From assembly GCA_036274495.1 (NCBI GenBank), contig DASUFP010000039.1:11303-75302 (forward strand): a DNA stretch of 64,000 bases. The letters run 5' to 3'. The notes beneath the pieces were generated by a model. It did not search any database. It saw only the letters and a list, made by a program, of their open reading frames with translations, and was not told the DNA's origin. Within the stretch, counting starts at the first letter, position 1, and each line of letters starts with the position of its first letter. The DNA is from Bacteroidia bacterium (lineage in GTDB: Bacteria > Bacteroidota > Bacteroidia > AKYH767-A > OLB10). Position numbers and translations under genes: made by a program. Shown one piece after another: positions 19,451 to 41,861 of the stretch.

Positions 19451-19453
19451 AAA

Positions 19454-19649: not shown

Positions 19650-19679
19650 GATACACACAATGATAAATAAAATAATCAA

Positions 19680-23800: not shown

Positions 23801-24388
23801 TTAAAGATTTAAATACGCATCTTTGATTATTTGCTGGCTAAGCCCAATGTATTTTCTGGTTATCGCTGTTGACGTGTGGTTGAAAATAGAGGATAATAAA
23901 ATTAACGATGCTTCACTCCGGTCATTAATTTCATAAACCCTACGCCCGAATGTTTTACGAAGGGTATGACTACTTGGATTCTGTACTTTTATTTTAAATT
24001 TATAAAACATTTTGTGCAACCGTCGATTGATGTGTTGTCGAGTATATGGCTTCCCATTCCGGCTGCAGAAAACGAATTGATTTGCATCCTTATTGTTCTG
24101 AATATTCAAATTGATAAATACCAGGTTGATAATTTCAATTAGTGAATTATTCAGAGCGATTTTCCTGAACTTTCCTGTTTTCCCTTCATGAAGGGCAATT
24201 TCATTTTTGTTTATTAATTGCTCCCACTTCAATTGAAGAATATCTCCGATTCTCATTCCACAGAAACCACCAAGACTAACAAAGAGGAGCAATTTATATT
24301 CACCTGTTTTTTTCAATGATTCGATTAAAACCAGAAATTGTCCCCAATCCATACCGGAGCATTCTGTAAGTTGATTTTGCTTTGCCAT
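23801..24388 (-). CDS. Tyrosine recombinase catalytic domain only (N-terminally truncated integrase remnant, probably non-functional)
   Basis: GMRIGD (box I Arg), HTLRKTF (His-x-x-Arg) and RKYIG (catalytic Tyr) are present in 195 aa with no core-binding domain. No ORF continues upstream. Confidence 0.55.
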   Translation of the reverse strand: MAKQNQLTECSGMDWGQFLVLIESLKKTGEYKLLLFVSLGGFCGMRIGDILQLKWEQLINKNEIALHEGKTGKFRKIALNNSLIEIINLVFINLNIQNNKDANQFVFCSRNGKPYTRQHINRRLHKMFYKFKIKVQNPSSHTLRKTFGRRVYEINDRSEASLILLSSIFNHTSTAITRKYIGLSQQIIKDAYLNL

Positions 24389-24990: not shown

Positions 24991-26439
24991 TTATGAAAAC
25001 ATGTCGGGGTCAATATTAGCATCCTTCATCTTTTTCACCAACGTATTCACACTTCCATATCCAATTGCCAATCGTGTTTGTTCTTTGTTTCCGTTTTTCA
25101 GTTTGAGCACACGTTTAATATGTTCAGCTTCTACATGCTCAATCCTAAGTGGATTTTCTATCGGACTTACAATCATGCGTTCAGGCAAATCCTTTACTTG
25201 GACCAGACCATCACAAAAAATATGCAGTTTAGCAATCAAATTTTCAAGCTCACGCAGATTGCCTGGAAAATGATAATTCAACATAACTTCCATAGATTGT
25301 TTGTCGAACTCCAACAGTTTGGTTCGCTTTAGTTTTTTCTTGTAAAGTTTATTAAAAAACTCAATCATGTTTTTTAGCTCTGCTTTCCCCCTTTCCAGCA
25401 AGGCCGGTATATGTAATTCGCCAACAGCAAGCCGATAATATAAGTCCCACCGAAATTTATCCTCTTCACATCTCTTAATCAGGTTTTGATTGGTAGCACA
25501 AATTATCCTGACATCCACTTTTTCGGGTTTACCTCCAACCGGGTGTATTTCCTTCTGTTGTATGACTCGCAACAAAGCTTGTTGCATATAAGGGCTGATA
25601 TCACCAATTTCATCAAGAAAAATACTTCCTTTATCTGCTTCATGGAATAAGCCAGGCGCATCCTTGCCTGCCCCGGTAAAAGCCCCCTTTTTATAACCGA
25701 ACAGTCTTGATTCAAGAAGCTGGTCTCCTATACCGGCACAATTGAATACAATGAATGGTTTCCCTTTACGTGTTGATTGTTCGTGCACATAATTTGCCAG
25801 GTGCTCTTTACCGACTCCACTCATACCTAATATCAATGTTGTGATGTCATCGGTATGTGCAATTTTTAATGCCTGGTCATAAACTGGCTGAATCGAATCG
25901 GTTATTATATAATCAGAATCCTGTTTTGGTTTACCCGATTTCGATAACTCATTATCGAGTATAGTTACTGCCGTCGGGATTTGACTTTGTTCAAAGTTAA
26001 TTTCAACGAGCTCCGGCCTTTCCTTGCTTTTCGTGAATTTAGCTTCTCTTGATTGGAGTAATCTTGTCTTATAATTACCCCCCAGATGTATGAAATACCA
26101 GGCAATCTGCATTTGTGGGGTTCCCGGACTAACGAAAATATCAATCTCATCATCCTTTATGGATAGCATCCATCGCTCGACTTTCTGCCTGATTTCATTT
26201 ACATTAATTACATCATCCACACCCAAGTAAACAATTTCGAATTCCCTGCCTTTAAACTTTTTGGACAATAAGGTAAAAAGCTTTAGCGCACGCAAATCGT
26301 CCTCTTTTGCGCTCGACAAAATGTAATGTTTATCATGCTCGAAAAAGTTGCTATGGAACGAACATGTAGGTCCACTTTCAATTGCCTCTCCATCTTTGAA
26401 ATCATGCTGGAACGCTAACCAACTTACAAGAATTTTCAT
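24991..26439 (-). CDS. RtcR-like sigma-54-dependent transcriptional activator (N-terminal CARF-like domain + AAA+ sigma-54 interaction domain with GAFTGA + C-terminal helix-turn-helix)
   Basis: Walker A GMSGVGKE. FGYKKGAFTGAGKD contains the GAFTGA loop. The C-terminal Fis-type helix-turn-helix is present. N-terminal DIFVSPGTPQMQIAWYFIHLG closely parallels the E. coli RtcR CARF motif IHITTGTHVAQICWFLL. Confidence 0.8.
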   Translation of the reverse strand: MKILVSWLAFQHDFKDGEAIESGPTCSFHSNFFEHDKHYILSSAKEDDLRALKLFTLLSKKFKGREFEIVYLGVDDVINVNEIRQKVERWMLSIKDDEIDIFVSPGTPQMQIAWYFIHLGGNYKTRLLQSREAKFTKSKERPELVEINFEQSQIPTAVTILDNELSKSGKPKQDSDYIITDSIQPVYDQALKIAHTDDITTLILGMSGVGKEHLANYVHEQSTRKGKPFIVFNCAGIGDQLLESRLFGYKKGAFTGAGKDAPGLFHEADKGSIFLDEIGDISPYMQQALLRVIQQKEIHPVGGKPEKVDVRIICATNQNLIKRCEEDKFRWDLYYRLAVGELHIPALLERGKAELKNMIEFFNKLYKKKLKRTKLLEFDKQSMEVMLNYHFPGNLRELENLIAKLHIFCDGLVQVKDLPERMIVSPIENPLRIEHVEAEHIKRVLKLKNGNKEQTRLAIGYGSVNTLVKKMKDANIDPDMFS

Positions 26440-26498: not shown

Positions 26499-27806
26499 TT
26501 GTATTTCAGCAAATTAATATTTGGAACATCAATTGAAAACGTATTAGGGTCAAACTATAAGCCAAAATCTATGAAAAACACCCTGATTTGCCCAAACTGT
26601 CGCCATGAAATTGATATAGAAAAAGCCTTGTTTGACCAGATTGCTTCACGGCAAAATGCTGAAATTCAACGTAAAAGAAAGGAATTGGAAGCATTAATAT
26701 CCGAACAGGAGAGTGTACTCCAGGAAAGGGAAGCCGAACTGAAAAACAAGATAGCTACTCAGGAGGAAGTTCTGAATTCCAAATTGAAGGAAAGGGAAGC
26801 CCAGATGAAAGAAAAACTCCGGTTGGAAATTTCCGATTGTTTAAGGATGGAAGTGGAAGAAAATAGGTTGAAAATGGAAGAGCAAAAATCCGAACTTAAC
26901 GCTCTTAAAAAAAGGGAGTTGGGTTTGCTCAGGGAGAAAGAAAAACTGGAGCAGGAACGCCAGGATATGGAATTAACTTTACAGCGCAAACTCACGGAAG
27001 AAAAAACCGCCCTGGAGGAAAGAGTTCGGAAACAAGAGCAAGAGTCCAACTTTCTCAGAAATCAGGAAAAAGATGAGCTTATTAATAATCTGAATCTCCA
27101 AATGAGCGATATGAAGCGCAAGTTGGAGCAGGGCTCCATGCAAAGCCAAGGTGAAATCCTCGAGCTGGAGTTGGAACGGATGCTGACAGCGCAATTCCCC
27201 TTTGATGATATCAGGGAGGTACCAAAAGGGGTAAACGGAGCGGATTTAGTTCAGGAAGTTAAGAATATTCGTCAGCAAAAGTGTGGTAGCATTTTATACG
27301 AAACCAAACGTACGAAGAACTTCAGTCCGACCTGGATTGATAAACTGAAATCCGACCAGCGAACTGTAGCTGCTGAAATAGCAGTACTCGTAACAGAAGT
27401 TCTACCAAAAGGAATGACACATTTTGGTTTGATGAATGGAGTTTGGATTTGTACATTTCAGCAAGTAAATTCACTGGTATTGGCACTCAGAGAAGGGTTA
27501 TTACAGATACAAGATGTCCGAGCTTCCGGTGAAAACAAATCCGGCAAGATGGCGCAGCTTTACGAATACCTAACCAACCAAGAATTTGCAGGGCAAATTC
27601 AGGCAATAGTCGACGGATTTGTGGGACAAAAAGATTTGCTTGAACGGGAAAAACGGTCGATGCAAGCTGTTTGGAAGCAACGAGAAAAACAAATTGAGAT
27701 GTGTACACAATCCGCCATAAGCTTATATAGCACCATTAAAGCTATTGCAGGGCACAATTCGATTTCAATTTCTTCATTGGAATTGCCAATTAACCAATTG
27801 ACCTAA
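26499..27806 (+). CDS. DUF2130-like protein (N-terminal zinc ribbon, long coiled coil, conserved C-terminal domain). The likely start is MKNTLICPNC at 26571
   Basis: CPNCRHEID zinc ribbon, a ~180-aa Glu/Lys/Leu-rich coiled coil and a conserved C-terminal region. It is the first gene of the plus-strand defense operon. Confidence 0.5.
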   Translation: MYFSKLIFGTSIENVLGSNYKPKSMKNTLICPNCRHEIDIEKALFDQIASRQNAEIQRKRKELEALISEQESVLQEREAELKNKIATQEEVLNSKLKEREAQMKEKLRLEISDCLRMEVEENRLKMEEQKSELNALKKRELGLLREKEKLEQERQDMELTLQRKLTEEKTALEERVRKQEQESNFLRNQEKDELINNLNLQMSDMKRKLEQGSMQSQGEILELELERMLTAQFPFDDIREVPKGVNGADLVQEVKNIRQQKCGSILYETKRTKNFSPTWIDKLKSDQRTVAAEIAVLVTEVLPKGMTHFGLMNGVWICTFQQVNSLVLALREGLLQIQDVRASGENKSGKMAQLYEYLTNQEFAGQIQAIVDGFVGQKDLLEREKRSMQAVWKQREKQIEMCTQSAISLYSTIKAIAGHNSISISSLELPINQLT

Positions 27807-27844: not shown

Positions 27845-30391
27845 ATGAGTGAAGACAATAATTCATCACAAAATTTTTTTAATACAATACGTTCGATACG
27901 TTCATTAGCACATATTTATGCAACAAATAGTGTTTTACTTTTTTTCTTTTACCTGAAGAGACTTGGATTGATTAATGACAAGTTGCTGTCGAGCAAATCT
28001 CAACTCAAATTTAATCTGCATAAAGCCATTCAAAATTCTTACAATTCAGATAGGATACTATATTCGGAACTTCAAATACTCTACAAGCTAAATGAAGAAA
28101 ATATTAATAACATACCCGAAGCTATATTAAATCAGATTCTGGGTAACATTGTTAACCTTGAGGATAGAGCAGATAATTTGATTATTAAAAATAATGTTGA
28201 ACAACTTATAAGTTCAATGGTCTCTACAAATGATAGAGAAATCGGATTATCATTTATGCCGTCGGAAGTGACAAAATTAATGTGCCAATTATCAGAAGCA
28301 AAGTCTGGCGATTATGTATATAATCCCTATGCCGGATTAGGCTCCTTGGGAGCGTATTTACCTCAAGACATTCATTTTATTGGGCAAGAATTAAATAAGA
28401 GCACATGGGCATTAGGATTTTTGAGAACTACCTTAGGCATGAATAACCCCAATTACAAATTTGTACAAGGTGATTCAATTGATGATTTTGGCTGCTTCAA
28501 ATACATTAATGAAAATCCCTATAAGTTTAAAAATTGGAATCAAAATAAACTTTACAGCCATATAATTTCCTGTCCTCCATTTGGTCTGAAAACTGCCTAT
28601 AGTGGAAAAAATGGAGAAATAATATCCGTATCATCCGAATTTCATTTGATTGAATCGGGAATTAAACTTTTAAGCAATAACGGAAAGCTCATTGCATGTA
28701 TTTCAAATGGATTTTTATTCAGACAAGGCAAGGAGGCTGAATTAAGAAAATATTTGGTAGAAAACGATTTGATTGAAACAGTCATATCACTTCCAAGCAA
28801 TCTGTTGTATAATACAGCTATCCCTACTTCCATCTTGTTAATTAATCAAAACAAGGCATTGAAAGGAAAAATCAAATTTATAGAAGGAAGACAATTAATT
28901 AGCACAGAAGATTTGCGACTTAATGTGTTGGATTTTGAAAGGATATTGAATTTATCCACATCAATTAATGATGGAGAATATCTCAGAATCGCTCCTATGG
29001 AACTGGTGGCACTTAATGAATACAATTTAATGCCCTCCAGGTATTTTCAAAAGTTTATTCCAGGAGAGCCCTTGAGCAATTTCTGTGAAATATTAAGATT
29101 TGGAAGAGATGAACAGTCATTAACTGGAAAATTTATTAGAATCCGAGACTTAAAGGGGGACCCGGCAGATTTTAGAATTAACACAAATAGCATTGCTGAA
29201 ATAAAATTACCATCGTATGCTGTTAAGATTAATAAATCCTGTCTTTTGGTTAGCACAAATTGGAAATCATTAAAACCAACCTATTTTAACTACGAAGGGA
29301 CCCCTCTTTTTTCTGGCAATGACATTATTGCAATTACATTTGATGAAAATAAAGTCAATCTTGGTTTTCTAATTGAAGAGCTTTCGTCTAAGTCTATCTT
29401 AGAACAAATAGATTTGTTGACAACAGGAACAACAGTTCCCCGATTATCAAAACAAGATTTACTCAATTTAAAGTTAGTACTCCCTCCTCTTGCAGAGCAG
29501 AATGCGAAATTTATGGGATTTATAGCAGGAGTAGCGGAATTAAAAAAAAGGGAGCTTGAATCATTTGCTAAAATAAATGGACTTGAAAATGAATTGTATG
29601 AACAAAATACATTTCTTCGTCACAAATTAGCTGGTCCTGTTAGTAATGCCCTTGGTGCATTTGAAAATATTTTTTCCATTCTCAATAGTGAAGTTGTAAG
29701 TAAACTTCCGGATGTCATGAATTTTAAACTTACTTCGAATCATCTTTATAGTTTGAATGATTATATAAACATACTGAAGAAAGGACTTGATGATATTTCT
29801 GACTCCGTAAAGAAGAAAATTACATTTGACATCAATTTTGCTAATAAAGTTAAATCTCCAATTGACATTCTCGCTTTTATAAACGCATATGTCAAGATTA
29901 AAAAGGAAAATCCAACATTAAATTACTCTATAGATGTAAAGTATGATAGTCCCGGATTTTTAGATGAAAACACTGAAACCGAATCAATAATTTATGTGAA
30001 CGGGAATGAAGAATTACTTACTGATTTATTTGATAATCTCTTAGAAAACGCTCAGGTGCATGCTTTTACCCAAGGAGCAAACAATAGAATCGAATTTTAT
30101 ATAATACCATATATAGTAAATGAAGATAAGCCCGAAATATGTATTTTGGTCTCTAACAATGGTAAGCCGTTTCCAGATGACGATGATTTAGTGTTTTCCA
30201 AAAATGGAAGTAAGGCGGGTCCAAATTCTGGTGATGGATTTGGGGGGTACTATGTTAGTGAGATTATAAAATTTCATGATGGCAAATGGGATATTATAGA
30301 TGAAACAGGACCGGAGGGTTTACCAAATACTGATTTGGCAACAACAATTGATATTACATTACCAGTAATTTCGAGTGATGCAAAAATATAA
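27845..30391 (+). CDS. Fusion protein: HsdM-like N6-adenine DNA methyltransferase domain + HsdS-like target recognition domain + histidine kinase (HisKA H-box + HATPase_c)
   Basis: Methyltransferase motif I VYNPYAGLGSLGAYL. Motif IV ISCPPFGL is a Cys variant of NPPF. The TRD ends with the type I S-subunit signature VLPPLAEQNAKF. The H-box is FLRHKLAGPVSNALGAFENIF. The ATPase N, G1 and G2 boxes are LLENAQVHA, VSNNGKPF and GDGFGGYYVSEII. Confidence 0.75.
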   Translation: MSEDNNSSQNFFNTIRSIRSLAHIYATNSVLLFFFYLKRLGLINDKLLSSKSQLKFNLHKAIQNSYNSDRILYSELQILYKLNEENINNIPEAILNQILGNIVNLEDRADNLIIKNNVEQLISSMVSTNDREIGLSFMPSEVTKLMCQLSEAKSGDYVYNPYAGLGSLGAYLPQDIHFIGQELNKSTWALGFLRTTLGMNNPNYKFVQGDSIDDFGCFKYINENPYKFKNWNQNKLYSHIISCPPFGLKTAYSGKNGEIISVSSEFHLIESGIKLLSNNGKLIACISNGFLFRQGKEAELRKYLVENDLIETVISLPSNLLYNTAIPTSILLINQNKALKGKIKFIEGRQLISTEDLRLNVLDFERILNLSTSINDGEYLRIAPMELVALNEYNLMPSRYFQKFIPGEPLSNFCEILRFGRDEQSLTGKFIRIRDLKGDPADFRINTNSIAEIKLPSYAVKINKSCLLVSTNWKSLKPTYFNYEGTPLFSGNDIIAITFDENKVNLGFLIEELSSKSILEQIDLLTTGTTVPRLSKQDLLNLKLVLPPLAEQNAKFMGFIAGVAELKKRELESFAKINGLENELYEQNTFLRHKLAGPVSNALGAFENIFSILNSEVVSKLPDVMNFKLTSNHLYSLNDYINILKKGLDDISDSVKKKITFDINFANKVKSPIDILAFINAYVKIKKENPTLNYSIDVKYDSPGFLDENTETESIIYVNGNEELLTDLFDNLLENAQVHAFTQGANNRIEFYIIPYIVNEDKPEICILVSNNGKPFPDDDDLVFSKNGSKAGPNSGDGFGGYYVSEIIKFHDGKWDIIDETGPEGLPNTDLATTIDITLPVISSDAKI

Positions 30392-31544
30392 CGTGATTTG
30401 GTTTGACGACCAATTTGACACATTAAATATCATACGAGAAGAAGCCCATTTAGCTGGCATTTCACTTGTTGGATTTTCTGACGCTCAGTCTGGTTTGCAT
30501 GAATTAGAGAAAAATTCACATTTGTATGATGCAGCCTTAGTCGATGGGAATTTCTTCATTAAACCTGGATTAAATTCTGACCAAGTTAGTGATGAAGCTC
30601 TTGACATTGTAGCTAAAGCTTTTCTTAGGCTTGAAACAAAAAAAATTATCCCATGGTTTATTCTTTCTGGTCAAGCCAATTTTACAAAAGGTGGAAACAA
30701 GTATGCTGATGTATATAAAAATGGAGAAGTTTTTGACAAAATAAATGAAAGTTCTCGTCAGGAATTATGGAATAAAATAAAAGAGGCAGCAAACCATCAA
30801 CCTGACACTCAACTTCGGCACAAATATCGTATGATTTTTGAGTTGTGCGATGAGAATTATCTGGGTATACATATGTCTGAAACATTGATGGGATTGATTC
30901 ATTTGCTTAAAGATGATTCAGAAGTGGAGCAAGGACTCCAATCTTGGAATACAATCCGGAAAGTAATTGAAAGATGTTTCATTGTACTTAACCGAATTGG
31001 CTTAATACCAGATGAGATAAATCGAACTTCTGGAAGTATAAATGGGTCAGGCTTGTTTTTGGCGGGCAAGCATTCCGATTTTCGATTGAAAAAAGAAATA
31101 GCTCCACCTGTAATTAATTTTATGATTCATAATTTGTTAGAACTTACACAAGACGGCTCTCATTCAAAAGAAGAATTAAAGCTTAAAGTAGATTTATTTG
31201 TAAAAAATCAACCAACCGGTTTTCTATTTAAAAGTAGCATTTATCAACTTTTGGAGATTCTAATTTGGCTTAAGAGCATTATTGACACTTATCCATCAAT
31301 AGATGACAACAAAAACCTTATTGAACTTCGAAGCGTCTCAAATACTGCCATTTATGAAGGCGAAATTGAACAAGACGAGCGTAAAAATTTTCACTGTGGA
31401 GAATATTTGTTAAACTTTCGTTTAGTAAATGAAAGTTACAAGGTTGGTGATATTATCAGAATATTGGATTTCACCTCTAACAACAATTCAAGAACAAATA
31501 TTTTTTATTCAAAATTTGCAACTAAATTTATAAAGATAACTTAA
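30375..31544 (+). CDS. Receiver (REC) domain protein with ~250-aa C-terminal domain of unknown function (candidate output/effector). It overlaps the kinase-fusion gene by 17 bp
   Basis: N-terminus VIWFDDQ...YDAALVDGNF...IPWFILSGQ...TKGGNK fits the REC Asp-Asp/Asp/Ser-Thr/Lys pattern. The C-terminal part is unassigned. Confidence 0.5.
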   Translation: MMQKYNVIWFDDQFDTLNIIREEAHLAGISLVGFSDAQSGLHELEKNSHLYDAALVDGNFFIKPGLNSDQVSDEALDIVAKAFLRLETKKIIPWFILSGQANFTKGGNKYADVYKNGEVFDKINESSRQELWNKIKEAANHQPDTQLRHKYRMIFELCDENYLGIHMSETLMGLIHLLKDDSEVEQGLQSWNTIRKVIERCFIVLNRIGLIPDEINRTSGSINGSGLFLAGKHSDFRLKKEIAPPVINFMIHNLLELTQDGSHSKEELKLKVDLFVKNQPTGFLFKSSIYQLLEILIWLKSIIDTYPSIDDNKNLIELRSVSNTAIYEGEIEQDERKNFHCGEYLLNFRLVNESYKVGDIIRILDFTSNNNSRTNIFYSKFATKFIKIT

Positions 31545-31551: not shown

Positions 31552-33027
31552 ATGACCCAAAAACAACTCGAAGACTACCTGTGGGGCGCAGCCAACATCT
31601 TGCGTGGAATGATTGATGCTGCCGATTTCAAGCAGTATATTTTTCCTTTGCTGTTTTTTAAACGAATCAGTGATTTGTGGGATGAGGAATTTGAAATTGC
31701 CAAAGTGGAGAGCGGTGGCGACTTAAAATACGCTGAGTTTGCCGAAAATCATCGGTTCCAGATTCCGAAAGGATGTCATTGGAACGATATCCGAAAAAAG
31801 ACGGTGGATGTAGGAGCCGCTTTGCAAAAGGCATTAACCGGTATTGAGAAGGCTAATTTTGAAATGCTACATGATGTATTTGGTGATGCCCAATGGACGA
31901 ACAAACGCCGGATGAGTGATGAAAAAATGCTCGACCTAATAGAACATTTCAGTAAAATGAATTTGAGTGTGAGTAATGTGCCCCACGACTTGATGGGGGA
32001 AGGGTATGAATACCTCATCAAAAAATTTGCGGATGACAGCGGGCACACGGCTGCGGAGTTTTATACCAATCGCACTGTGGTAAAACTCATGACCCAGATT
32101 ACAGACCCCAAAAGCAAAGAGAGTATATACGACCCGACATGTGGAAGTGGCGGAATTTTACTAAGTGCTGCCCTACATTTGAAAGAGCAAGGTAAAGAAT
32201 ACCGAACATTGAAGCTGTACGGACAGGAGTTGAACCTGATAACCTCTGCTATTGCCCGTATTAATATGTTTATGCATAACGTGGATGAGTTTCTTATTGT
32301 CCAAGGCGATACCCTTGACAGCCCACAAATTCTTGAAAACGATGAGTTGAAGCAATTTGATGTTATTATGGCCAATCCTCCTTATAGTGTAAAGAAATGG
32401 AGCCAGAAAAAGTGGATGAATGACCCTTTTGGACGTAATATCTGGGGTACGCCTCCCCAGGGTTGTGCCGATTATGCCTTCCAGCAGCACATTATGAAAA
32501 GCCTGAACCCTGTTACAGGACGTAGTGTGGTATTGTGGCCTCACGGAGTATTATTCCGGGATGCGGAAAATGAAATCCGTAAAAAAATGATTGAGGAAGA
32601 TTATGTGGATGCGGTTATCGGGCTTGGGAAAAATCTGTTTTACAACAGTAGTATGGAAAGTTGTTTGCTGGTGTGTAGGATGAAAAAGCCAAAGGAGCGA
32701 AAAGGAAAGATTATTTTCATTGATGCCAAAGATGAACTTAGAGTTGAGCGGACTAATGCCTGGTTGGAGCCACAGCACATTAAGAAGATAAGCGATGCAT
32801 ATTGGAAGTTTAAAGATATTGACGGTTTTGCCAAAGTAATCTCTAATAAGGAAGTGTTGGTTAACAATGGTAATCTCAGCTTACCACTCTACGTGAAGCA
32901 ATCTACTAATGCATCTGAACACAATACTCAAGAGTTAATTTCCGAAATTAAAGATAGACAGAAACAAATCAATAAGTCTATTGATAATTTGGTTGCTCAT
33001 CTTAAACAAATTGGAATAGAATCATGA
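31552..33027 (+). CDS. hsdM: Type I restriction-modification system methyltransferase subunit HsdM
   Basis: HsdM N-terminal domain LEDYLWGAANILRG. Motif I YDPTCGSGGIL. NPPY motif MANPPYSV. Confidence 0.9.
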   Translation: MTQKQLEDYLWGAANILRGMIDAADFKQYIFPLLFFKRISDLWDEEFEIAKVESGGDLKYAEFAENHRFQIPKGCHWNDIRKKTVDVGAALQKALTGIEKANFEMLHDVFGDAQWTNKRRMSDEKMLDLIEHFSKMNLSVSNVPHDLMGEGYEYLIKKFADDSGHTAAEFYTNRTVVKLMTQITDPKSKESIYDPTCGSGGILLSAALHLKEQGKEYRTLKLYGQELNLITSAIARINMFMHNVDEFLIVQGDTLDSPQILENDELKQFDVIMANPPYSVKKWSQKKWMNDPFGRNIWGTPPQGCADYAFQQHIMKSLNPVTGRSVVLWPHGVLFRDAENEIRKKMIEEDYVDAVIGLGKNLFYNSSMESCLLVCRMKKPKERKGKIIFIDAKDELRVERTNAWLEPQHIKKISDAYWKFKDIDGFAKVISNKEVLVNNGNLSLPLYVKQSTNASEHNTQELISEIKDRQKQINKSIDNLVAHLKQIGIES

Positions 33028-34184
33028 AGTTGAATAAGCATAAGTGGGGTTCGGTTAAGCTTTCCGAGGTTTGCGAAAAAACTCAAAATGTTGATATACG
33101 CAAGCAATCAGGAATATTCAGTTATATTGATATTGGGTCTATTAATTCTGATGCAAAAAGAGTATCTGAAGTCCAAATGCTGAATTGGTCAGAAGCTTCT
33201 TCAAGAGCAAGACAAATAATTCATAAAGGAGATACTCTTTTTTCAACTGTACGAGTCAATCTCGAAAGAATTGCGTTTATTGATAAGGAAATTCCTAATG
33301 CGATTGCCTCTACTGGATTTACTGTTATAAGAGCCAATAAAAAGGCTTTGCCAGAATTCTTATTTTACTCAACAAGTTCTCCGGAATTTATAGAAAGACT
33401 TTGCAAATTGCAAAAGGGGACTGCTTATCCTGCGGTTTCTGATAGAATAGTCTTTAATGAAGTTATTCCCCTCCCCTCACTCGCCGAACAAAAGCAAATA
33501 GCCGAATTATTTCAAAGCATTGAAGCTGCCATGGAACAGGTGGAGGGGCAGGAGAGGAATTTGAGGACACTTCAAAAATCCTTAGTCAATGGCTTAGTTG
33601 GCAAAAAACCAGTCTTTGGAGATTTATTGAACGCAAAAAACTGCACCCCTACAACCTTTGGTGAAATAGCCGAGTGCGACAAAAAGTACCCTGAGCATGA
33701 ATTAGAGGCGGAACGGTTTGTTGGTTTGGAGAATATTGAGGCTGATAACTTTCAACTGCTTGGTTATGGATTAGTTGCCAATGGAACCACTTTTTCCAAA
33801 CGGTTTTGCACTGGAGATGTATTGTTTGGGAAGCGAAGAGCATACTTAAAAAAAGTTGCAGTCGCAGATTTTAATGGTATATGTTCAGGTGACATCCTGG
33901 TAATAAGAGCTAAGGCTAAGAAAATGCTGCAGGGGCTTTTGCCATATTATATTTCAGCAGATGCATTCATTCAACATGCCGTCAGTACTTCTGCAGGCTC
34001 TTTATCTCCACGGACCAAATGGAAAGATTTAGCTGACTTCGAGATTTCAATACCTGATATAAAAACACAGGAGAAAATACTGGCAATCCTTAGTCAGTTT
34101 GATAATACTATTAATCAGCTCAAACAGCAGAAGGTGACATTGAAAAATTTGAAGCAAAAGTTACTGAATGAGATTTTGGGGTAA
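33024..34184 (+). CDS. hsdS: Type I restriction-modification system specificity subunit HsdS (two target recognition domains)
   Basis: Two TRDs separated by the conserved PLPSLAEQKQIAELF region, with C-terminal LKQKLLNEIL. The gene overlaps the end of hsdM. Confidence 0.85.
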   Translation: MKLNKHKWGSVKLSEVCEKTQNVDIRKQSGIFSYIDIGSINSDAKRVSEVQMLNWSEASSRARQIIHKGDTLFSTVRVNLERIAFIDKEIPNAIASTGFTVIRANKKALPEFLFYSTSSPEFIERLCKLQKGTAYPAVSDRIVFNEVIPLPSLAEQKQIAELFQSIEAAMEQVEGQERNLRTLQKSLVNGLVGKKPVFGDLLNAKNCTPTTFGEIAECDKKYPEHELEAERFVGLENIEADNFQLLGYGLVANGTTFSKRFCTGDVLFGKRRAYLKKVAVADFNGICSGDILVIRAKAKKMLQGLLPYYISADAFIQHAVSTSAGSLSPRTKWKDLADFEISIPDIKTQEKILAILSQFDNTINQLKQQKVTLKNLKQKLLNEILG

Positions 34185-34327: not shown

Positions 34328-36559
34328 ATGAAAATGAACAAAAAACCTTCACCTGAACCTGAAACAAAGGTTGCAAGAATCATTGGGTTATTCAAGACTT
34401 CTCCAACAGAAGCTTTTCAATCATTACTCGAAGAAGGAATTTTCTTTAACCACAAGCAAAGTGTCAATTTTTGGCAGAGTTATTCTGCAATTTACTCTGA
34501 TGAACTTGTTGTATCATTTCCTGAATCAACAGAATTATTCAACAAGTTGGTTTGGCTCAAACTGTTCCATGATTTAAATCAATTCTATAATTCGGAAAAG
34601 GATAAAAACCTAAAAGAGTTATATGCTCTCAATCCGAATCAAAAAGATTTTGTTCAAGCCCTATTTCTTTGTCTTGAACTTGGAACCTATAGTTATCCAT
34701 ACTCGACCTTTCCGATTTATTCTGGAGATTCCCTCACGGCAATTAAAACTATCCTTAAGGAAGTAAAACATCGCTTAAATCCCCAGAAACCATCTCCATA
34801 CTCCCCTGCACTTGCTCAAACGTGCAACACTCTGTTAAAAATCCAGATAGATTTGGATTCGCTCGAAGAATTCGTTGATGCATATGTATGGGCAGGACTT
34901 GAAATGGAGAAACTGAAAGATTTGCAAGGATTTTCATTATCCATTTCAGAACGAAATAAAAAAGAGCTCAATCCACTTGTATTAAATCAAATAAAGACGA
35001 TAATAAAGCGAACATATAAACAAACAGAATCACATGCTGGGATTTCGACAGAAAAACACTTTATAAAGAACGACCCTAAATGGAAGTCCAATGAAGGTAT
35101 ATTAGGGGCAATTGCCTTACATGGGGCAACTATCCATTCAAAAACACCTGGAATAACAGCGATAAATGCTGAGCCTGGAGAGTTTCCGGAATTAGACGTA
35201 ACCAATCCGCATTCTATTAATTCAATTGCGAAGAAAGCCATTGAAACATTTTTGACTCACAATTTTCATTTACAGCTAAGACAAGCAATCTCCAGTGTTT
35301 ATCAACCTAATGATGAGATAGATATCAAGACAATTCAGATTGAAGTCAAACCAAACATGTTTTTTTCACTTTTCGAGTTGATAGCTGCAATGTCAAGTCT
35401 GATTTCATGGTCGGATGCATATAGGTATTTCGCAGATTTTCCAGACAGTGGAAGCATCAAGTCTATCAAGAGGAAACTTTACCATCAGCTATCAAGCCAG
35501 GATGCAGATTTATCTGAGTTTGAAAAACACGAAATAATTAACTGGAAAATCGTGAGCGAATTTCAATTAATCAATTCAGCTCCAGAAAATATTTTCTATG
35601 CCTTATTGAGCTCAGATAGTATTATCAATAAATTTCGGGATGTTGAAGAATTAAGGGACAAGTCTCCGATTGAACTTGAATCTATTTTACATTTATTTTC
35701 AGATTTGAATATTAAAACGCCTTTTAATCCAATTTATACTGTTAATAGTGATTACTATTTTGCTAATCACAGTTGTCTTTTCAATATGAATCGCATGTTA
35801 TATGACAATTACATTTCAGATGAATTGTTCAATTCAAAAAAGCCCACGGGAAAGCAAAGAAAACATGTAGGGGATTTACAGAAAAATCGGGAATTACAAT
35901 TTGGCAATTCGATTTCAGATGTTTTTAAAGAAATAACTCCATATAGTAAAGCAAATATAAAATTTGATGGAACCAATCCTAAATATAATTTCGGTGATTT
36001 AAAGGGTGAACTGGATACGGCTGTTTATTTCGAGTCAGAAAACATATTGTTTGTAATTGAGGTGAAGTTAAGTAATGTTGCTCCAAGGAGCGAAAAAAGA
36101 AAATACACTTGGGTATACAATAATATTGCAAATAAACATAAAGTAAATTCGGGAGTAAATCAAATCAAGAAGGATTTAAAGTTATTAAGTATTGGTGTCG
36201 GGTTACAATTAATTTCAGAGGAGATTAACGCTCCGAGTACAATTACAAATCCCCGTGTTTATCCAATAATCATTACTGATAATTTCTTTGCTGACCATGA
36301 AGAATTCATATACAATGAGAGAGGAGATAAGGTTCGTTGCATCAGTTATTTTGAACTTAAACATCTCATTTTAAACAAACCGATTCACGAACAGCAAAAA
36401 TTGCCTGAATTAAAAGGAGAATCAATCGCATCACAATTAATAAAGGCAATTGATAACAATTTATTTTGGAAATTCATTACTGATGAGGCTGCAAACTATT
36501 CATACACCAAGTCCCTCACTGCCATCAATGATGAATTCAAAATAACTATGAAGATATAG
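34328..36559 (+). CDS. Large hypothetical protein (743 aa) with C-terminal PD-(D/E)xK-like nuclease motif, inserted between hsdS and hsdR
   Basis: GELDTAVYFESENILFVIEVKLS fits the Asp...Glu-x-Lys restriction-endonuclease-fold motif. No other recognizable domain. Confidence 0.4.
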   Translation: MKMNKKPSPEPETKVARIIGLFKTSPTEAFQSLLEEGIFFNHKQSVNFWQSYSAIYSDELVVSFPESTELFNKLVWLKLFHDLNQFYNSEKDKNLKELYALNPNQKDFVQALFLCLELGTYSYPYSTFPIYSGDSLTAIKTILKEVKHRLNPQKPSPYSPALAQTCNTLLKIQIDLDSLEEFVDAYVWAGLEMEKLKDLQGFSLSISERNKKELNPLVLNQIKTIIKRTYKQTESHAGISTEKHFIKNDPKWKSNEGILGAIALHGATIHSKTPGITAINAEPGEFPELDVTNPHSINSIAKKAIETFLTHNFHLQLRQAISSVYQPNDEIDIKTIQIEVKPNMFFSLFELIAAMSSLISWSDAYRYFADFPDSGSIKSIKRKLYHQLSSQDADLSEFEKHEIINWKIVSEFQLINSAPENIFYALLSSDSIINKFRDVEELRDKSPIELESILHLFSDLNIKTPFNPIYTVNSDYYFANHSCLFNMNRMLYDNYISDELFNSKKPTGKQRKHVGDLQKNRELQFGNSISDVFKEITPYSKANIKFDGTNPKYNFGDLKGELDTAVYFESENILFVIEVKLSNVAPRSEKRKYTWVYNNIANKHKVNSGVNQIKKDLKLLSIGVGLQLISEEINAPSTITNPRVYPIIITDNFFADHEEFIYNERGDKVRCISYFELKHLILNKPIHEQQKLPELKGESIASQLIKAIDNNLFWKFITDEAANYSYTKSLTAINDEFKITMKI

Positions 36560-36606
36560 TGCATAGGTGAGTTATCGGAGAATCCGATAATCTAAATCTC
36601 ACCACT

Positions 36607-37476
36607 ATGCAAAATTCTTCATTACCCAAAATCCCGTCCGTTAACTTTCACTTATGGGAACCCTGCAACATGCGTTGCGGATTTTGTTTTGCCACCTTCC
36701 AGGATGTAAAACAAACTGTTTTACCAAAAGGGCACCTTCCAAAAGATGATGCCCTGAGAATTGTAAAACTTCTGGCAGATGCCGGTTTTCAGAAAATCAC
36801 CTTTGCCGGTGGAGAGCCTACACTCTGCCCCTGGCTCACTGAGCTTATCGTTGAAGCAAAAAATGCCGGGATGACTACCATGATAGTTACAAATGGTACC
36901 GGCCTTAGCAACTCTTTCCTAAAACAGAACCGGGAATATCTGGACTGGATAGCCATCAGTATTGACAGCATCTCTCCTGAGACCAACATGGCTTCGGGCA
37001 GAGCTATCTCTGGTAACAGACCGTTAAGTTTAGCGCAATATCAGTTACTGATTGCACAGATTCATCAGTTTGGATACAACCTGAAAATTAATACCGTTAT
37101 AAACCGGTTAAATTATTTGGAAGACCTGAATGAATTTATCCGGTTTGCCAATCCTAAACGATGGAAGGTTTTGCAGGCACTGCCAATAGTTGGACAGAAC
37201 GACCGGAAAATTGATGCATTCAAAATTTCACAGCAGGAGTTCAACTTTTTCCTTCATACCCACCGGAAGTTGCATCACTTGTTAGTGCCTGAAACCAACT
37301 CTCAGATTTTAGGGTCATACGTAATGGTGGACCCAGCCGGGAGGTTTTTCGATAATTTCGAAGAAAAGCACCGGTACAGTATGTCGATTTTGGAGGTTGG
37401 GGCTCAACAAGCTTTGACGCAGGTGCATTATGATGCCTTAAAATTCCAAGACAGAGGTGGAATATATGATTGGTAG
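36607..37476 (+). CDS. Prokaryotic viperin homolog (pVip), a radical SAM antiviral enzyme
   Basis: CNMRCGFCF radical SAM cluster motif. Extended identity to human viperin is visible by eye: VNFHLWEPCNMRCGFCFATF vs NYHFTRQCNYKCGFCFHTA; YLDWIAISIDS vs YLDILAISCDS; LKINTVINRLN...NPKRWKVLQALPIVGQN vs FKINSVINRFN...NPVRWKVFQCLLIEGEN; LVPETNSQILGSYVMVD vs LVPESNQKMKDSYLILD. It ends in a C-terminal Trp like viperin. Confidence 0.85.
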   Translation: MQNSSLPKIPSVNFHLWEPCNMRCGFCFATFQDVKQTVLPKGHLPKDDALRIVKLLADAGFQKITFAGGEPTLCPWLTELIVEAKNAGMTTMIVTNGTGLSNSFLKQNREYLDWIAISIDSISPETNMASGRAISGNRPLSLAQYQLLIAQIHQFGYNLKINTVINRLNYLEDLNEFIRFANPKRWKVLQALPIVGQNDRKIDAFKISQQEFNFFLHTHRKLHHLLVPETNSQILGSYVMVDPAGRFFDNFEEKHRYSMSILEVGAQQALTQVHYDALKFQDRGGIYDW

Positions 37477-38882: not shown

Positions 38883-41861
38883 ATGTCATTTAATGAACTT
38901 AATGCGGTAGAACATTTTATCATTCACCAGTTAACCGGTGTAAATCTGAATGATGTTCAAAAGAGTCGTGCGGAAGATGGTCCGGTATCGTATGCAAACG
39001 AACCGAAGTGGAGATATGTTCAATCTGAACTGCTAAAACGGGATATATCTGATGTACTGCTGGAATCCGAATTGAAGGATGCTCTTTACAGATTAAATCC
39101 ACAGTTGAATGGTAGCTCTGAAAAGGCAGATGAAATAATTCATAAACTCAGAGCGATTCTAATAACAGTTAACAATGTAGGACTTGTAAGAGCTAACGAA
39201 GAGTTTTCAAAATGGCTCCGTAATGAAATGACGTTGCCTCTTGGTAAGAATCATGAACACATCACCATCAGGTTAATTGACTTTGAGCAGGTAGAAAACA
39301 ACAGTTATATTCTAACTAACCAATTAAACTTTCGGGCACGGGAAACTAAAATTCCTGACATCGTAATGTATGTCAATGGTATTCCGCTTGTAATTGGCGA
39401 AGCGAAGACACCGGTACGTCCTGCCGTGACCTGGTTTGATGGTGCCCATGACATTCATCAAATTTATGAGAATGCAATACCGCAACTATTCGTCCCAAAT
39501 ATCTTTTCATTTGCAACGGAAGGCAAAGAGCTGTTCATTGGTGGTGTCCGAACTCCACTTGAATTTTGGGCTCCCTGGCGAATTGAAGTCGAAAAAGACG
39601 AACTAAGTCATTTTGCCGGTCTGAACGATGTGGCGAAACAGCTAACACACTTGCTGAAACCCTCAACTGTTCTGGATATTCTCCAGTTCTACACAGTTTA
39701 TGCAACCAGCAGCAAGAAAAAGAAAATCAAAGTGGTGTGCAGGTATCAGCAATATGAGGGCGCAAATGGTATTGTGGAGCGTGTGAAAGAGGGGAAAATC
39801 AAGAAAGGACTCATTTGGCACTTCCAGGGTTCCGGTAAATCGTTGCTGATGTTGTTTGCAGCTCAGAAATTGCGAAAACAGCAAGACTTGCATAATCCTA
39901 CGGTCTTGATAGTGGTTGACCGAACCGACCTGGATACTCAGATAGCAGCAACTTTTAATACTGCCGAGGTTCCCAACATGGTTACAACCGACAACATAAA
40001 GCAACTGCACAAATTACTCGAACAAGATACCCGCAAAATCATTATCACCATGGTTCACAAGTTCAAGGAAGCGTATGCTGATATGAACACACGGGAGAAC
40101 ATCATTGTGATGGTGGATGAAGCTCATCGAACGCAAGAAGGTGATTTGGGTAGAAAAATGCGAAGCGCACTTCCAAATGCTTTTCTTTTCGGACTAACCG
40201 GTACTCCCATCAATAAAGCAGATAAAAACACTTTCTGGGCTTTTGGAGCTGAGCAGGATTCGGGAGGATATATGAGCCGGTATACTTTCCAGGACAGCAT
40301 CCGTGATAATGCTACCCTACCATTACATTTTGAACCCCGATTACCAAATTATCATATCGACAAAGAAAGTCTCGATGTTGCTTTCAGGGAGATGGCAAAT
40401 GACCTAAGTGAAGAAGACCGGAATAAACTTAGCCAGAAGGCTGCAAATATGTCGGTCTTTCTAAAATCTCCTGAGCGAGTAAAAACCATTGTTGCCGATA
40501 TCGCAGAACATTTTAAAGCACACGTTGAGCCGGAAGGTTTAAAGGCGATGATAGTTACTCCGGACAGGTATGCTTGCATCCAGTACAAGGAAGAACTGGA
40601 TAAACTCATGGGTGCTGAATGCAGTGCGGTTGTTATCAGTACATCCGCAAACGATGATTATGAATTCAAACAGAAATGGGGACTTGATAAAGATGCACAG
40701 GAAAAGGTGGTGGAGAAATTTAATGATTCTGATTCGCCATTGAAGTTTCTCATTGTGACAGCCAAACTTCTAACAGGGTTCGATTCTCCCATTCTGCAAA
40801 CCATGTACCTGGATAAATCATTAAAAGACCATACTCTCCTACAAGCGATTTGCAGAACAAACAGACTATTTCCCAATAAAACATTTGGTAGAATCGTAGA
40901 TTATTTCGGTGTGTTTGACGATACAGCCTCTGCCCTGGCGTTTGACGAAGCCAGTGTAAAGGCAGTTATCACTAATTTACAAGAGTTGCGTGACAAATTA
41001 CCTGAGTGGATTGACAAATGCCTTTCTCATTTCTCTGGAGTTGATAGGACTCTTGGCGGATTTGAAGGATTACAAAAAGCTCAGGATTGTATTAACACAA
41101 ATGAGAAGCGTGATGCATTCGCCAAAGACTACAGCAGCTTGTGCAAATTATGGGAAGCCCTTTCACCTGACCCGGTATTAAATCAATATCAGAAAGATTA
41201 CAAATGGCTGTCGCAGGTATATACAAGTGTAAAACCTGCTTCAGATGATAATGGCCGTTTGCTCTGGCATGCACTTGGTGCACAAACAACAGCTCTAATT
41301 CACGAACACATTCATGTTACAGGCATCAACAAAGAGATGGAAGAGTTGGTGCTGGATGCCGAAGTGATTGATGACTTAATGAATAAAAAAGACCCAAACA
41401 AGGCAAAGAAAGTGATGATTATATTAATTGGCCGTTTGAAGAAACACGGCAATAATCCAATCTTTAAAAAGCTAAGTGAACGACTGGAAATCATACGTAG
41501 CAAAGCAGAACAAGGCCTCATTAATTCAGTTGAGTTTATCAAGGAACTGTGTCAAATTGCGAAGGAGACACTGCAGGCGGAAAAAGGCATTGAAACTAAA
41601 GTCGAGCAGAAATCTGGCAAAGCTGCACTAACTGAATTGTTTTTGGAATTAAAAACCGACACCACTCCAGCAATCGTAGAACGAATCGTTAATGACATTG
41701 ACGAAATCGTTCGAATTGTCCGTTTTGACGGATGGCAGGATTCTACGGTAGGCGAGCGGGAAGTGAAAAAAGAACTCCGGAAGGTGCTTTGGACAAAATA
41801 TCAAATAAAAGATGAGGAGTTGTTTAATAGGGCGTATGATTATATAAGGGAATATTATTAA
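38883..41861 (+). CDS. hsdR: Type I restriction-modification system restriction subunit HsdR
   Basis: SF2 helicase motif I FQGSGKS and DEAH box VMVDEAHRTQ. Length 992 aa. It directly follows the hsdM/hsdS cluster. Confidence 0.9.
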   Translation: MSFNELNAVEHFIIHQLTGVNLNDVQKSRAEDGPVSYANEPKWRYVQSELLKRDISDVLLESELKDALYRLNPQLNGSSEKADEIIHKLRAILITVNNVGLVRANEEFSKWLRNEMTLPLGKNHEHITIRLIDFEQVENNSYILTNQLNFRARETKIPDIVMYVNGIPLVIGEAKTPVRPAVTWFDGAHDIHQIYENAIPQLFVPNIFSFATEGKELFIGGVRTPLEFWAPWRIEVEKDELSHFAGLNDVAKQLTHLLKPSTVLDILQFYTVYATSSKKKKIKVVCRYQQYEGANGIVERVKEGKIKKGLIWHFQGSGKSLLMLFAAQKLRKQQDLHNPTVLIVVDRTDLDTQIAATFNTAEVPNMVTTDNIKQLHKLLEQDTRKIIITMVHKFKEAYADMNTRENIIVMVDEAHRTQEGDLGRKMRSALPNAFLFGLTGTPINKADKNTFWAFGAEQDSGGYMSRYTFQDSIRDNATLPLHFEPRLPNYHIDKESLDVAFREMANDLSEEDRNKLSQKAANMSVFLKSPERVKTIVADIAEHFKAHVEPEGLKAMIVTPDRYACIQYKEELDKLMGAECSAVVISTSANDDYEFKQKWGLDKDAQEKVVEKFNDSDSPLKFLIVTAKLLTGFDSPILQTMYLDKSLKDHTLLQAICRTNRLFPNKTFGRIVDYFGVFDDTASALAFDEASVKAVITNLQELRDKLPEWIDKCLSHFSGVDRTLGGFEGLQKAQDCINTNEKRDAFAKDYSSLCKLWEALSPDPVLNQYQKDYKWLSQVYTSVKPASDDNGRLLWHALGAQTTALIHEHIHVTGINKEMEELVLDAEVIDDLMNKKDPNKAKKVMIILIGRLKKHGNNPIFKKLSERLEIIRSKAEQGLINSVEFIKELCQIAKETLQAEKGIETKVEQKSGKAALTELFLELKTDTTPAIVERIVNDIDEIVRIVRFDGWQDSTVGEREVKKELRKVLWTKYQIKDEELFNRAYDYIREYY

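What the first reader, a model, noticed from the sequence alone, without database searches (positions are those of the whole stretch)
27845..28640. Non-canonical CPPF motif IV in the fused methyltransferase domain
Seen in sequence: where N6-adenine methyltransferases carry (D/N/S)PP(Y/F/W), this domain reads ISCPPFGL. Established knowledge: the first residue of this tetrad hydrogen-bonds the target amino group and is essential for catalysis. Inference: the domain may bind DNA and/or AdoMet without methylating, acting as a sensor for the fused kinase. The downstream canonical HsdM (NPPY) would then supply the real methylation.
Basis: partly seen in the sequence, partly recalled or inferred. Interest (0 to 1): 0.5.

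Follow-up and report, generated by a model that had tools for sequence, protein, structure and literature searches.

The report
Methylase-like sensor kinase, variable catalytic site
A DNA-methylase domain fused to a bacterial signalling kinase carries cysteine where the catalytic asparagine should be, and across more than a hundred related genomes this one residue varies freely while the cofactor-binding residues stay fixed, which suggests the domain serves as the kinase's sensor and not mainly as an enzyme.

Summary
Observation confirmed. ORF 27845-30391 (+, 848 aa) reads ISC243PPFGL at the family-aligned motif IV. The Cys codon is TGT at 28571-28573.

The protein is HsdM-like N-domain + N6-adenine MTase + one HsdS-type TRD + histidine kinase (invariant H593, intact N/G boxes). 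The next gene encodes a receiver-domain protein, and a canonical type I R-M operon follows.

The Cys is not an error. CPPF recurs in at least 3 other lineages (TGC/TGT). It is also not a family signature.

- Among 149 representatives at 50% identity, the first residue is N 67, S 23, T 20, H 13, A 10, C 4.
- Only 48% of these are canonical (D/N/S)PP(Y/F/W); in 80 species genomes the figure is 70%.
- The adjacent HsdM genes in those loci (and this window) are canonical in 69 of 69 cases.
- Position 243 is as variable as an average column (2.5 bits). The SAM-binding motifs I-III and the two prolines are near-invariant.

Its link to the downstream HsdM is not supported:
- HsdM is present whatever the motif state.
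- 13 of 71 loci lack it, including one CPPF locus.
- The fused TRD is conserved and does not track the variable HsdS.

The WYL-fusion-receiver cassette occurs in at least 118 species genomes, mostly Bacteroidota. I found no description of it in the searchable literature. Catalytic loss itself was not tested.

The parts
27845..30391 (+). 848-aa fusion protein: HsdM_N-like helical domain + N6-adenine MTase + one HsdS-type TRD + DHp + HATPase_c (sensor histidine kinase)
   Evidence: ORF list. Pfam hits: N6_Mtase E 2e-34, Eco57I, Methylase_S, HATPase_c. AF2 model pLDDT 82. Foldseek top hits are HsdM, PacII M1M2S, CamA, M.BseCI and M.TaqI.
28199..29053 (+). MTase catalytic domain (aa 119-403)
   Evidence: Pfam N6_Mtase match over aa 119-403. 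PDB HsdM sequence hits 3lkd and 7bst.
28316..28345 (+). Motif I, VYNPYAGLGS (AdoMet-binding loop, aa 158-167)
   Evidence: N160, P161, G164 and S167 are near-invariant in both canonical and non-canonical family members.
28571..28582 (+). Motif IV, C243-P-P-F (the flagged feature); Cys codon TGT 28571-28573
29060..29488 (+). Single HsdS-type target recognition domain (aa 406-548), ending in LPPLAEQ
   Evidence: Pfam Methylase_S and PADLOC Specificity_I hits. Only the framework part matches the window's HsdS. It is as conserved as the MTase core across the family.
29489..29824 (+). Long helix continuing from the HsdS conserved-region helix into a DHp-like hairpin (aa 549-660); phospho-acceptor candidate H593 (codon 29621-29623)
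   Evidence: H593 is invariant in 51 of 51 sequences. Helices 549-617 and 637-657 appear in the AF2 model, with low pLDDT (52-65) over 571-600.
29825..30388 (+). HATPase_c catalytic (CA) domain (aa 661-848) with N box (N731, N735), G1-like NNG (771-773) and G2 GxGG (798-801)
   Evidence: Pfam HATPase_c 27.2 bits against a cut-off of 26.4 on the C-terminal fragment. Near-invariant residues listed.
30378..31544 (+). Cognate response regulator: REC + helical domain + small C-terminal OB (S1/CSD-like). Its start overlaps the fusion's stop.
31552..33027 (+). Canonical HsdM (NPPY), 7 nt after the partner gene
   Evidence: Pfam N6_Mtase E 2e-88 plus HsdM_N. Motif IV is canonical.
33024..34184 (+). 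HsdS with two TRDs
   Evidence: Pfam Methylase_S, two stretches.
38883..41861 (+). HsdR of the same type I system, separated from HsdS by three inserted genes
   Evidence: Sequence. Used as the HsdR query that recovers HsdR in related loci.

Best explanation
The ORF encodes a sensor histidine kinase. Its input module is a complete HsdM-like methyltransferase plus one HsdS-type TRD.

In this family the module is kept for what it binds: AdoMet, and probably DNA or a flipped base in the PP-aromatic pocket. Methyl transfer is dispensable, so the first residue of motif IV drifts. In this genome it is Cys. By established knowledge of (D/N/S)PP(Y/F/W) enzymes, Cys is a poor hydrogen-bond acceptor for the target N6 amino group and should cripple catalysis.

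Ligand binding is proposed to travel through the long helix that runs from the HsdS-type conserved-region helix into the DHp helix carrying H593. This would set autophosphorylation and phosphotransfer to D56 of the REC-helical-OB protein encoded next.

The WYL-fusion-REC cassette usually sits directly upstream of a type I R-M operon. It most likely regulates or backs up that operon.

Shown here: domain architecture; intact kinase and receiver residues; conserved synteny; hypervariability of position 243; invariance of SAM motifs; recurrence of Cys.

Inferred: loss of catalysis; the signalling route; what is sensed. Candidates for the signal are DNA state, AdoMet level, or DNA-mimic anti-restriction proteins.
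For: Motif IV states:
- 14 of 51 orthologs are non-canonical.
- 78 of 149 representatives at 50% identity are non-canonical: N 67, S 23, T 20, H 13, A 10, C 4.
- 24 of 80 species genomes are non-canonical.
- Controls: ordinary HsdM hits 69/70 canonical; adjacent HsdM in those loci (and this window) 69/69 canonical. Fisher p = 1.7e-5 and 4e-16.

Constraint:
- Entropy at 243 is 2.51 bits, the 57th percentile of MTase columns. In HsdM it is 0.11 bits, the 3rd percentile. P244 and P245 are 0.33 and 0.10 bits.
- Motif I (N160, P161, G164, S167), motif II (E182) and motif III (D210, S211) are near-invariant in both canonical and non-canonical members.
- No alternative canonical tetrad exists in any of the 78 non-canonical members.
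- Parsimony gives at least 74 changes at the site, an Asn root and at least 3 origins of Cys. L017 and L086 are 54% identical and both keep Cys.

Kinase and partner:
- H593 is invariant and the N/G boxes are conserved. HATPase_c is detected.

Context:
- WYL, fusion, partner, HsdM, HsdS, HsdR is the order in most of 80 loci.
- The fused TRD is as conserved as the MTase core (0.39-0.41 vs 0.43 pairwise identity). Neighbouring HsdS is 0.23 and HsdM 0.32.

Literature:
- The first residue of motif IV hydrogen-bonds the flipped adenine and is crucial for catalysis (PMC10050889).
- A degenerate EPPL motif marks the non-catalytic, RNA-binding METTL14 (PMC10915109).
Against: - Asn is still the commonest residue (45-71%). 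About 78% of members keep an oxygen-bearing acceptor (N/D/S/T/Q/E), so many members may be active and weak selection for hydrogen bonding cannot be excluded.
- Cys is nearly isosteric with Ser, a canonical residue. The backbone carbonyl of the first Pro also accepts a hydrogen bond, so residual activity of CPPF is possible.
- No methylome, biochemistry or ligand data exist for any member.
- The 50%-identity representative set is more diverse than the HsdM control set, so raw entropies are not strictly comparable. I therefore rely on percentiles and on the HsdM genes from those loci (and this window).
- The window protein lacks the upstream WYL gene found in most loci and is a long-branch member. 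It deviates at otherwise conserved W215 and D238.
- The helix linking the TRD to H593 has low model confidence.
Confidence: 0.55

Rival explanations
1. The CPPF variant is still an active DNA methyltransferase. Cys, like Ser/Thr in SPPF/TPPF members, together with the Pro backbone carbonyl positions the amino group well enough. The kinase is regulated by, or regulates, real methylation, making this a self-marking sensor in the manner of BREX PglX.
For: Every other catalytic-domain feature is intact: motifs I-III, the PP pair, F246 and the motif VIII-like GFLFR. N/S/T/C are single-nucleotide neighbours (AAY-AGY-TGY, ACY). S and T together make up 29% of representatives, and SPP(Y/F) is a canonical motif. 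Cys persists across 54% divergence between L017 and L086.
Against: Ala, Ile, Phe, His and loss of the aromatic residue (L/I/M/S/V at position 4) also occur repeatedly. The site is no more constrained than an average column. The HsdM genes from those loci (and this window) never vary. If self-methylation were the self/non-self mark, the at least 39 canonical/non-canonical switches should be autoimmune. No natural active CPP(F/Y) enzyme turned up in the text search.
Confidence: 0.25
2. The MTase-TRD module is an adaptor that docks onto the adjacent type I enzyme as an alternative M/S subunit contacting HsdR or HsdM/HsdS. It reports the enzyme's assembly or activity state to the kinase and does not read DNA or AdoMet itself.
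For: It retains an HsdM_N-like N-terminal domain and the HsdS-type helix. It is almost always in an operon with hsdMSR, with overlapping or 7-nt-spaced genes in the window.
Against: 13 of 71 loci have the cassette without a type I system within 4 kb. The accompanying HsdM and HsdS belong to very different families (median identity 0.24 and 0.22), while the cassette is conserved. Strict conservation of the AdoMet-binding motifs is unexplained by a pure adaptor role.
Confidence: 0.12
3. The codon is an assembly or sequencing artefact, or the gene is a decaying pseudogene in this MAG.
For: There is a single contig for this exact protein and no independent strain copy was found. The protein is a long-branch, divergent member.
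Against: Asn to Cys needs two substitutions. The 848-aa ORF is intact and all kinase and SAM-binding residues are present. CPPF recurs independently in L012, L017/L086 and P0157.
Confidence: 0.04

Closest known systems
Type I R-M methyltransferase subunit HsdM (plus half an HsdS), e.g. EcoKI/EcoR124I M subunits; PDB 3lkd, 7bst
   Same: Same fold and motif order: HsdM_N-like helical N-domain, motifs I-III, the PP core of motif IV, an HsdS-type TRD and the LPPLxEQ helix.
   Different: The first residue of motif IV is Cys here and is hypervariable in the family. M and TRD are fused in one chain, as in gamma-class type II/IIG enzymes. A histidine kinase follows. The protein scores far below the HsdM equivalog cut-off (80 vs 242.75 bits). 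The TRD does not diversify.
METTL14 (EPPL pseudo-methyltransferase partner of METTL3)
   Same: An N6-adenine MTase fold with a degenerate motif IV, retained as a nucleic-acid-binding scaffold (PMC10915109). The family here even contains EPPF and xPPL members.
   Different: METTL14 is uniformly degenerate, and the review doubts that it binds SAM. Here the SAM-binding motifs are near-invariant, about half of the members remain canonical, and the output is a fused kinase and not a heterodimeric partner enzyme.
BREX BrxX/PglX methyltransferase (and the Pgl system's PglW kinase + PglX)
   Same: An MTase-TRD protein used by a defence system as the SAM-dependent recogniser of DNA sites, not only as a modifier (PMC11842806). 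By my own recollection, not checked here, Pgl/BREX type 2 also combines a kinase with an MTase.
   Different: PglX keeps NPPY and must methylate self DNA. Its kinase is a separate Ser/Thr kinase. No PglZ or BrxC is present here. PADLOC gives no BREX-type hit for the kinase part or the partner.
Two-component anti-phage or regulatory modules: Detocs, and the CapK/CapS kinase-repressor pairs upstream of immune operons
   Same: A kinase with a phospho-acceptor partner encoded with, or upstream of, immune genes (PMC13373217). A WYL (BrxR-like) regulator sits upstream, as at many defence operons.
   Different: The input domain (MTase-TRD) and the output (REC-helical-OB) differ. No PADLOC model matches the window's kinase part or its partner at E<=1; an orthologous partner has one weak hit, PDC-M16B at E 0.011. 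The Detocs resemblance is recalled from memory and was not tested beyond PADLOC.

Membership tests
N6-adenine DNA methyltransferase, gamma class / N6_Mtase (PF02384) | Rossmann-like MTase fold and a significant profile match | tested here: met
   Pfam E 2.1e-34, 119.7 bits against a cut-off of 20.4. Foldseek hits to HsdM, PacII, CamA and M.TaqI.
N6-adenine DNA methyltransferase, gamma class / N6_Mtase (PF02384) | AdoMet-binding motifs I-III (Gly-rich loop, acidic residue after beta2, D/N after beta3) | tested here: met
   NPYAGLGS, E182 and D210-S211 are present. These positions are near-invariant in the family.
N6-adenine DNA methyltransferase, gamma class / N6_Mtase (PF02384) | Catalytic motif IV (D/N/S)PP(Y/F/W) | tested here: not met
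   CPPF at aa 243-246, with no other such tetrad in the protein.
N6-adenine DNA methyltransferase, gamma class / N6_Mtase (PF02384) | Methyl transfer to adenine N6 in DNA | not testable with these tools
   Needs a methylome or an enzyme assay.
Type I R-M subunit HsdM (TIGR00497 equivalog) | Score above the curated equivalog cut-off; HsdM_N domain; separate HsdS subunit | tested here: not met
   80.1 bits against a cut-off of 242.75. No PF12161 hit. The TRD is fused in cis.
Two-component sensor histidine kinase | Conserved phospho-acceptor His in a helical DHp hairpin | tested here: met
   H593 is invariant in 51 of 51 sequences within FLRHKLAGP. Helices 549-617 and 637-657 are present. No HisKA Pfam hit, so the DHp assignment rests on the model and on conservation.
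Two-component sensor histidine kinase | HATPase_c domain with N, G1 and G2 boxes | tested here: met
   The C-terminal fragment scores 27.2 bits against a cut-off of 26.4. The whole protein scores 24.5, just below. N731, N735, N771-N772-G773 and G798/G800/G801 are near-invariant.
Two-component sensor histidine kinase | Cognate receiver-domain partner | tested here: met
Two-component sensor histidine kinase | Autophosphorylation and phosphotransfer | not testable with these tools
   Biochemical assay needed.
Pseudo-methyltransferase (METTL14-like non-catalytic MTase fold) | Degenerate motif IV | tested here: met
   CPPF here. 52% of family representatives are non-canonical.
Pseudo-methyltransferase (METTL14-like non-catalytic MTase fold) | Demonstrated absence of catalysis | not testable with these tools
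   Inferred only from the role of the first residue (PMC10050889).
Known defence systems with an MTase plus kinase/ATPase (MADS, BREX/Pgl, Detocs) as modelled in PADLOC | Matches to system-specific components beyond the generic MTase and specificity domains | tested here: not met
   Only generic MTase_I and Specificity_I hits, plus mad2 and mad5 (MTase and S homologs), were found. The window's kinase part and its partner give 0 hits at E<=1. An orthologous partner gives one weak hit, PDC-M16B at E 0.011.

The most novel reading that the evidence does not exclude
The WYL-(MTase-TRD-histidine kinase)-(REC-helical-OB) cassette is an undescribed two-component system, widespread in Bacteroidota. 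A SAM-loaded, catalytically dispensable DNA-methyltransferase module would be the kinase's sensory input. It would detect a phage-linked cue such as AdoMet depletion by SAM lyases, DNA-mimic anti-restriction proteins, or a particular DNA state. It would then phosphorylate an OB-fold effector or regulator that guards or gates the neighbouring type I restriction system. The drifting motif IV, including this Cys, would be the evolutionary footprint of an enzyme converted into a receptor.
Probability: 0.35. Interest if true: 0.8.

Novelty: new variant of a known kind. Interest (0 to 1): 0.6.

Why it matters
Histidine kinases are known with many input domains. I found no description of one whose input is a whole DNA methyltransferase plus a target-recognition domain.

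If the module is a receptor, it gives a direct handle on how bacteria couple the state of DNA, AdoMet or the restriction machinery to phospho-signalling next to a type I R-M system. It would also be a natural example of an enzyme becoming a sensor, caught in the process: half of the lineages have already lost the canonical catalytic tetrad while all keep the cofactor site.

Several cultured Bacteroidota carry members with different motif IV states, so the question can be tested directly. In practical terms, genome annotation and methylome-to-gene assignment should not count these genes automatically as active 'N-6 DNA methylases'.

Tried and rejected
1. Pairwise BLASTP and phmmer against HsdM proteins misplace motif IV. 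NPPY aligns to 'INENP-YKF' in a clade-specific insertion. I rejected this in favour of the family and profile alignments and the AF2 strand assignment.

2. Sequencing error. Rejected because CPPF recurs elsewhere. A metagenome scan for strain variants of the codon found nothing, so there is no read-level check.

3. Hypothesis that loss of the motif correlates with having an adjacent HsdM. No association, p=0.51.

4. Hypothesis that the fused TRD copies a TRD of the neighbouring HsdS. Only the framework region matches, E 2e-5.

5. Membership in MADS, Detocs or BREX. PADLOC gives only generic MTase and S hits, and nothing for the window's kinase part or its partner.

6. Literature searches for the fusion, for CPPF motifs and for TOTE systems returned nothing relevant. 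Willcock et al. 1994 could not be retrieved.

8. The AFDB fold library was unavailable.
Full report
**What is in the sequence.** ORF 27845-30391 (+) encodes 848 aa. Residues 240-247 read I-S-C-P-P-F-G-L. The Cys codon is TGT at 28571-28573.

Pfam finds N6_Mtase (aa 119-403, E 2e-34), Eco57I, Methylase_S (aa 459-554) and HATPase_c (aa 721-840). The C-terminal fragment on its own passes the HATPase_c gathering score.

An AF2 model built on 51 homologs (pLDDT 82) shows five parts:
- a helical N-domain;
- the Rossmann-like MTase, with strand beta4 at 237-242 so that C243 opens the motif IV loop;
- a beta-rich TRD;
- a 69-residue helix (549-617) starting at the HsdS-type LPPLAEQ and containing H593, followed by a second helix (637-657);
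- an alpha/beta ATPase domain.

Foldseek's best PDB matches are HsdM subunits, PacII M1M2S, and single-chain gamma-class MTases such as CamA, M.BseCI and M.TaqI.

**Is C243 really the motif IV position?** Yes. In the 51-sequence family alignment it shares a column with the N of NPPF/NPPY. When 70 ordinary HsdM hits are aligned to the family's MTase profile, 69 place NPP[YF] in the same four columns.

Pairwise BLASTP with the window's own HsdM instead matches NPPY to 'INENP-YKF' (aa 221-228). That segment is a clade-specific insertion modelled as helix, so I treat it as a chance match. The protein has no other (D/N/S)PP(Y/F/W) tetrad.

**Family picture.**
- A word-indexed search gave 51 full-length fusions. 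Their first residue of motif IV is N 38, H 4, T 2, S 2, and one each of C, E, D, A and V. Including broken PP or a lost aromatic residue, 14 of 51 are non-canonical.
Among the 149 that cover the site: N 67, S 23, T 20, H 13, A 10, C 4, D 4, I 3, Q 2, E/Y/F 1 each. Only 71 (48%) are canonical.
- In species-dereplicated genomes, 118 carry a relative. Of the 80 loci fetched, nearly all from Bacteroidota, 56 are canonical and 3 read CPPF.
- The HsdM genes lying next to these fusions are canonical in 69 of 69 cases. Fisher tests against HsdM controls give p = 1.7e-5 and 4e-16.

Column entropy makes the same point. Position 243 has 2.51 bits, the 57th percentile of MTase-domain columns in the fusion family. 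In HsdM it has 0.11 bits, the 3rd percentile. P244 and P245 stay at 0.33 and 0.10 bits.

The AdoMet-binding residues are near-invariant, and equally so in canonical and non-canonical members: motif I N160/P161/G164/S167, motif II E182, motif III D210/S211.

Fitch parsimony on an NJ tree gives an Asn root, at least 74 changes at this site, at least 39 canonical/non-canonical switches, and at least 3 origins of Cys (the tree is approximate).

**The Cys itself.** CPPF occurs in P0157, P0190 and P0213, and in genomes L012, L017 and L086, with TGC, TGC and TGT codons. Each has non-Cys nearest neighbours, except for the L017/L086 pair, which are 54% identical and both keep Cys. So the Cys is a real, recurrent and stable state. 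It is not a sequencing error, and it is not a family hallmark.

N (AAY), S (AGY), C (TGY) and T (ACY) are single-step mutational neighbours. This fits drift among small residues.

**Signalling context.**
- H593 is invariant and the N and G boxes are conserved.
- Its C-terminus is a small OB. In orthologs this region hits S1/CSD-like models weakly (PF22707 E 2e-6; PF08206). Its helical middle domain is unassigned.
- HsdM starts 7 nt after it, followed by HsdS. After three inserted genes (a 743-aa unknown, a prokaryotic viperin, and Fic) comes HsdR.

Across loci the usual order is WYL-WCX regulator, fusion, REC partner, HsdM, HsdS, (inserts), HsdR. The window lacks the WYL gene and instead has DUF2130 ending 38 nt upstream of the fusion's start.

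- HsdM lies within 4 kb downstream in 42 of 50 canonical and 16 of 21 non-canonical loci, p=0.51.
- Thirteen loci have the cassette without a type I system nearby, including CPPF locus L017.
- The fused TRD evolves at the pace of the MTase core (pairwise identity 0.39-0.41 vs 0.43). The neighbouring HsdS (0.23) and HsdM (0.32) belong to diverse families.
- The window's fused TRD matches its HsdS only in the framework region.

So nothing suggests that the fusion reads the mark written by the adjacent HsdM. A conserved TRD points to a conserved ligand and not to a diversifying R-M specificity.

**Interpretation.** Established knowledge holds that the first residue of (D/N/S)PP(Y/F/W) accepts a hydrogen bond from the flipped base's amino group and is critical (PMC10050889). 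A degenerate motif marks the non-catalytic METTL14 (PMC10915109).

Together with the family pattern, this gives my best reading. The MTase-TRD module is the input domain of a two-component kinase, selected for AdoMet binding and probably DNA or base binding. Methyl transfer is dispensable, and in this genome it is probably crippled.

Frequent motif loss also argues against a BREX-like scheme in which the protein's own methylation is the self mark. Each loss would then be autoimmune.

What is sensed remains open; candidates are AdoMet level, DNA state, or DNA-mimic anti-restriction proteins. The TRD-helix-to-DHp relay is an inference from a monomer model with low confidence over residues 571-600.

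Caveats:
- Asn remains the plurality residue.
- About 78% of members keep an oxygen acceptor.
- Cys is isosteric with the canonical Ser.
- No activity data exist for any member.

**Comparison and novelty.** The domain belongs to the HsdM/gamma-class fold but fails the motif IV criterion and the HsdM equivalog score. The kinase and receiver criteria that can be tested in silico are met.

PADLOC has no model for the window's kinase part or its partner, and NCBIfam has none for the partner. Ten full-text searches found no description of this fusion (among others). That library is incomplete, so a prior description cannot be excluded.

I rate this a new variant of known kinds: a two-component system with a new input domain, and a partly pseudo-enzymatic MTase.

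Noticed in passing
window 28505-28528 (aa 221-228, INENPYKF): Inside a roughly 16-aa insertion between motif III and beta4 lies a sequence that BLASTP aligns to the HsdM's NPPYSVKKW, missing one Pro. Relatives P0003, P0005 and P0008 have an insertion at the same place but without this resemblance. Probably chance.
   Followed up: partly
window 34328-37476: Three genes are inserted between hsdS and hsdR. A 743-aa ORF (34328-36559) has no Pfam, PADLOC or NCBIfam hit. A prokaryotic viperin (pVip; radical SAM) sits at 36607-37476. A Fic/SoFic-like protein follows at 37795-38877. Other loci carry GmrSD-type genes in the same slot.
   Followed up: partly
window 24991-26439 (-) and 26499-27806 (+): An RtcR-like CARF-sigma54 activator (PADLOC RtcR_PspF2, E 2e-126) is divergently oriented from a DUF2130 gene. 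The DUF2130 gene ends 38 nt before the fusion gene's start. The window lacks the WYL regulator found upstream of the fusion in most other loci. Locus L003 has RmuC in the same position.
   Followed up: no
window 15586-20666: Further defence-island content: a GmrSD_N protein (15586-17361), a reverse transcriptase (18278-19591, -) with an adjacent 288-aa unknown (17412-18278, -), and DUF4407 (19680-20666, -).
   Followed up: no
window 46588-48789: A tyrosine integrase (Arm-DNA-bind_5/Phage_int_SAM_5) is followed by a D12-class (Dam-like) adenine methyltransferase. Together with a short integrase-like ORF at 23801-24388 (-), this suggests the region is part of an integrative element ending before gltX (50264-51802, -).
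   Followed up: no
L010-L089 (related loci): The WYL-fusion-REC cassette is more conserved than the type I systems it precedes (HsdM median identity 0.24). In 13 of 71 loci it stands without a type I system. This suggests a portable three-gene module.
   Followed up: partly
family alignment A1, motif I: The family's motif I is NPFAGLASF. N replaces the usual D/E, and the second Gly of GxG is Ala in about 80% of members. The window protein has the more canonical GLG. The effect on AdoMet binding is unknown.
   Followed up: no
window 8326-14565 (-): A 2079-aa secreted protein with a PGAP1-like lipase domain, PKD repeats and a T9SS C-terminal sorting domain. Unrelated to the finding. A similar protein lies next to the cassette in L081.
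   Followed up: no
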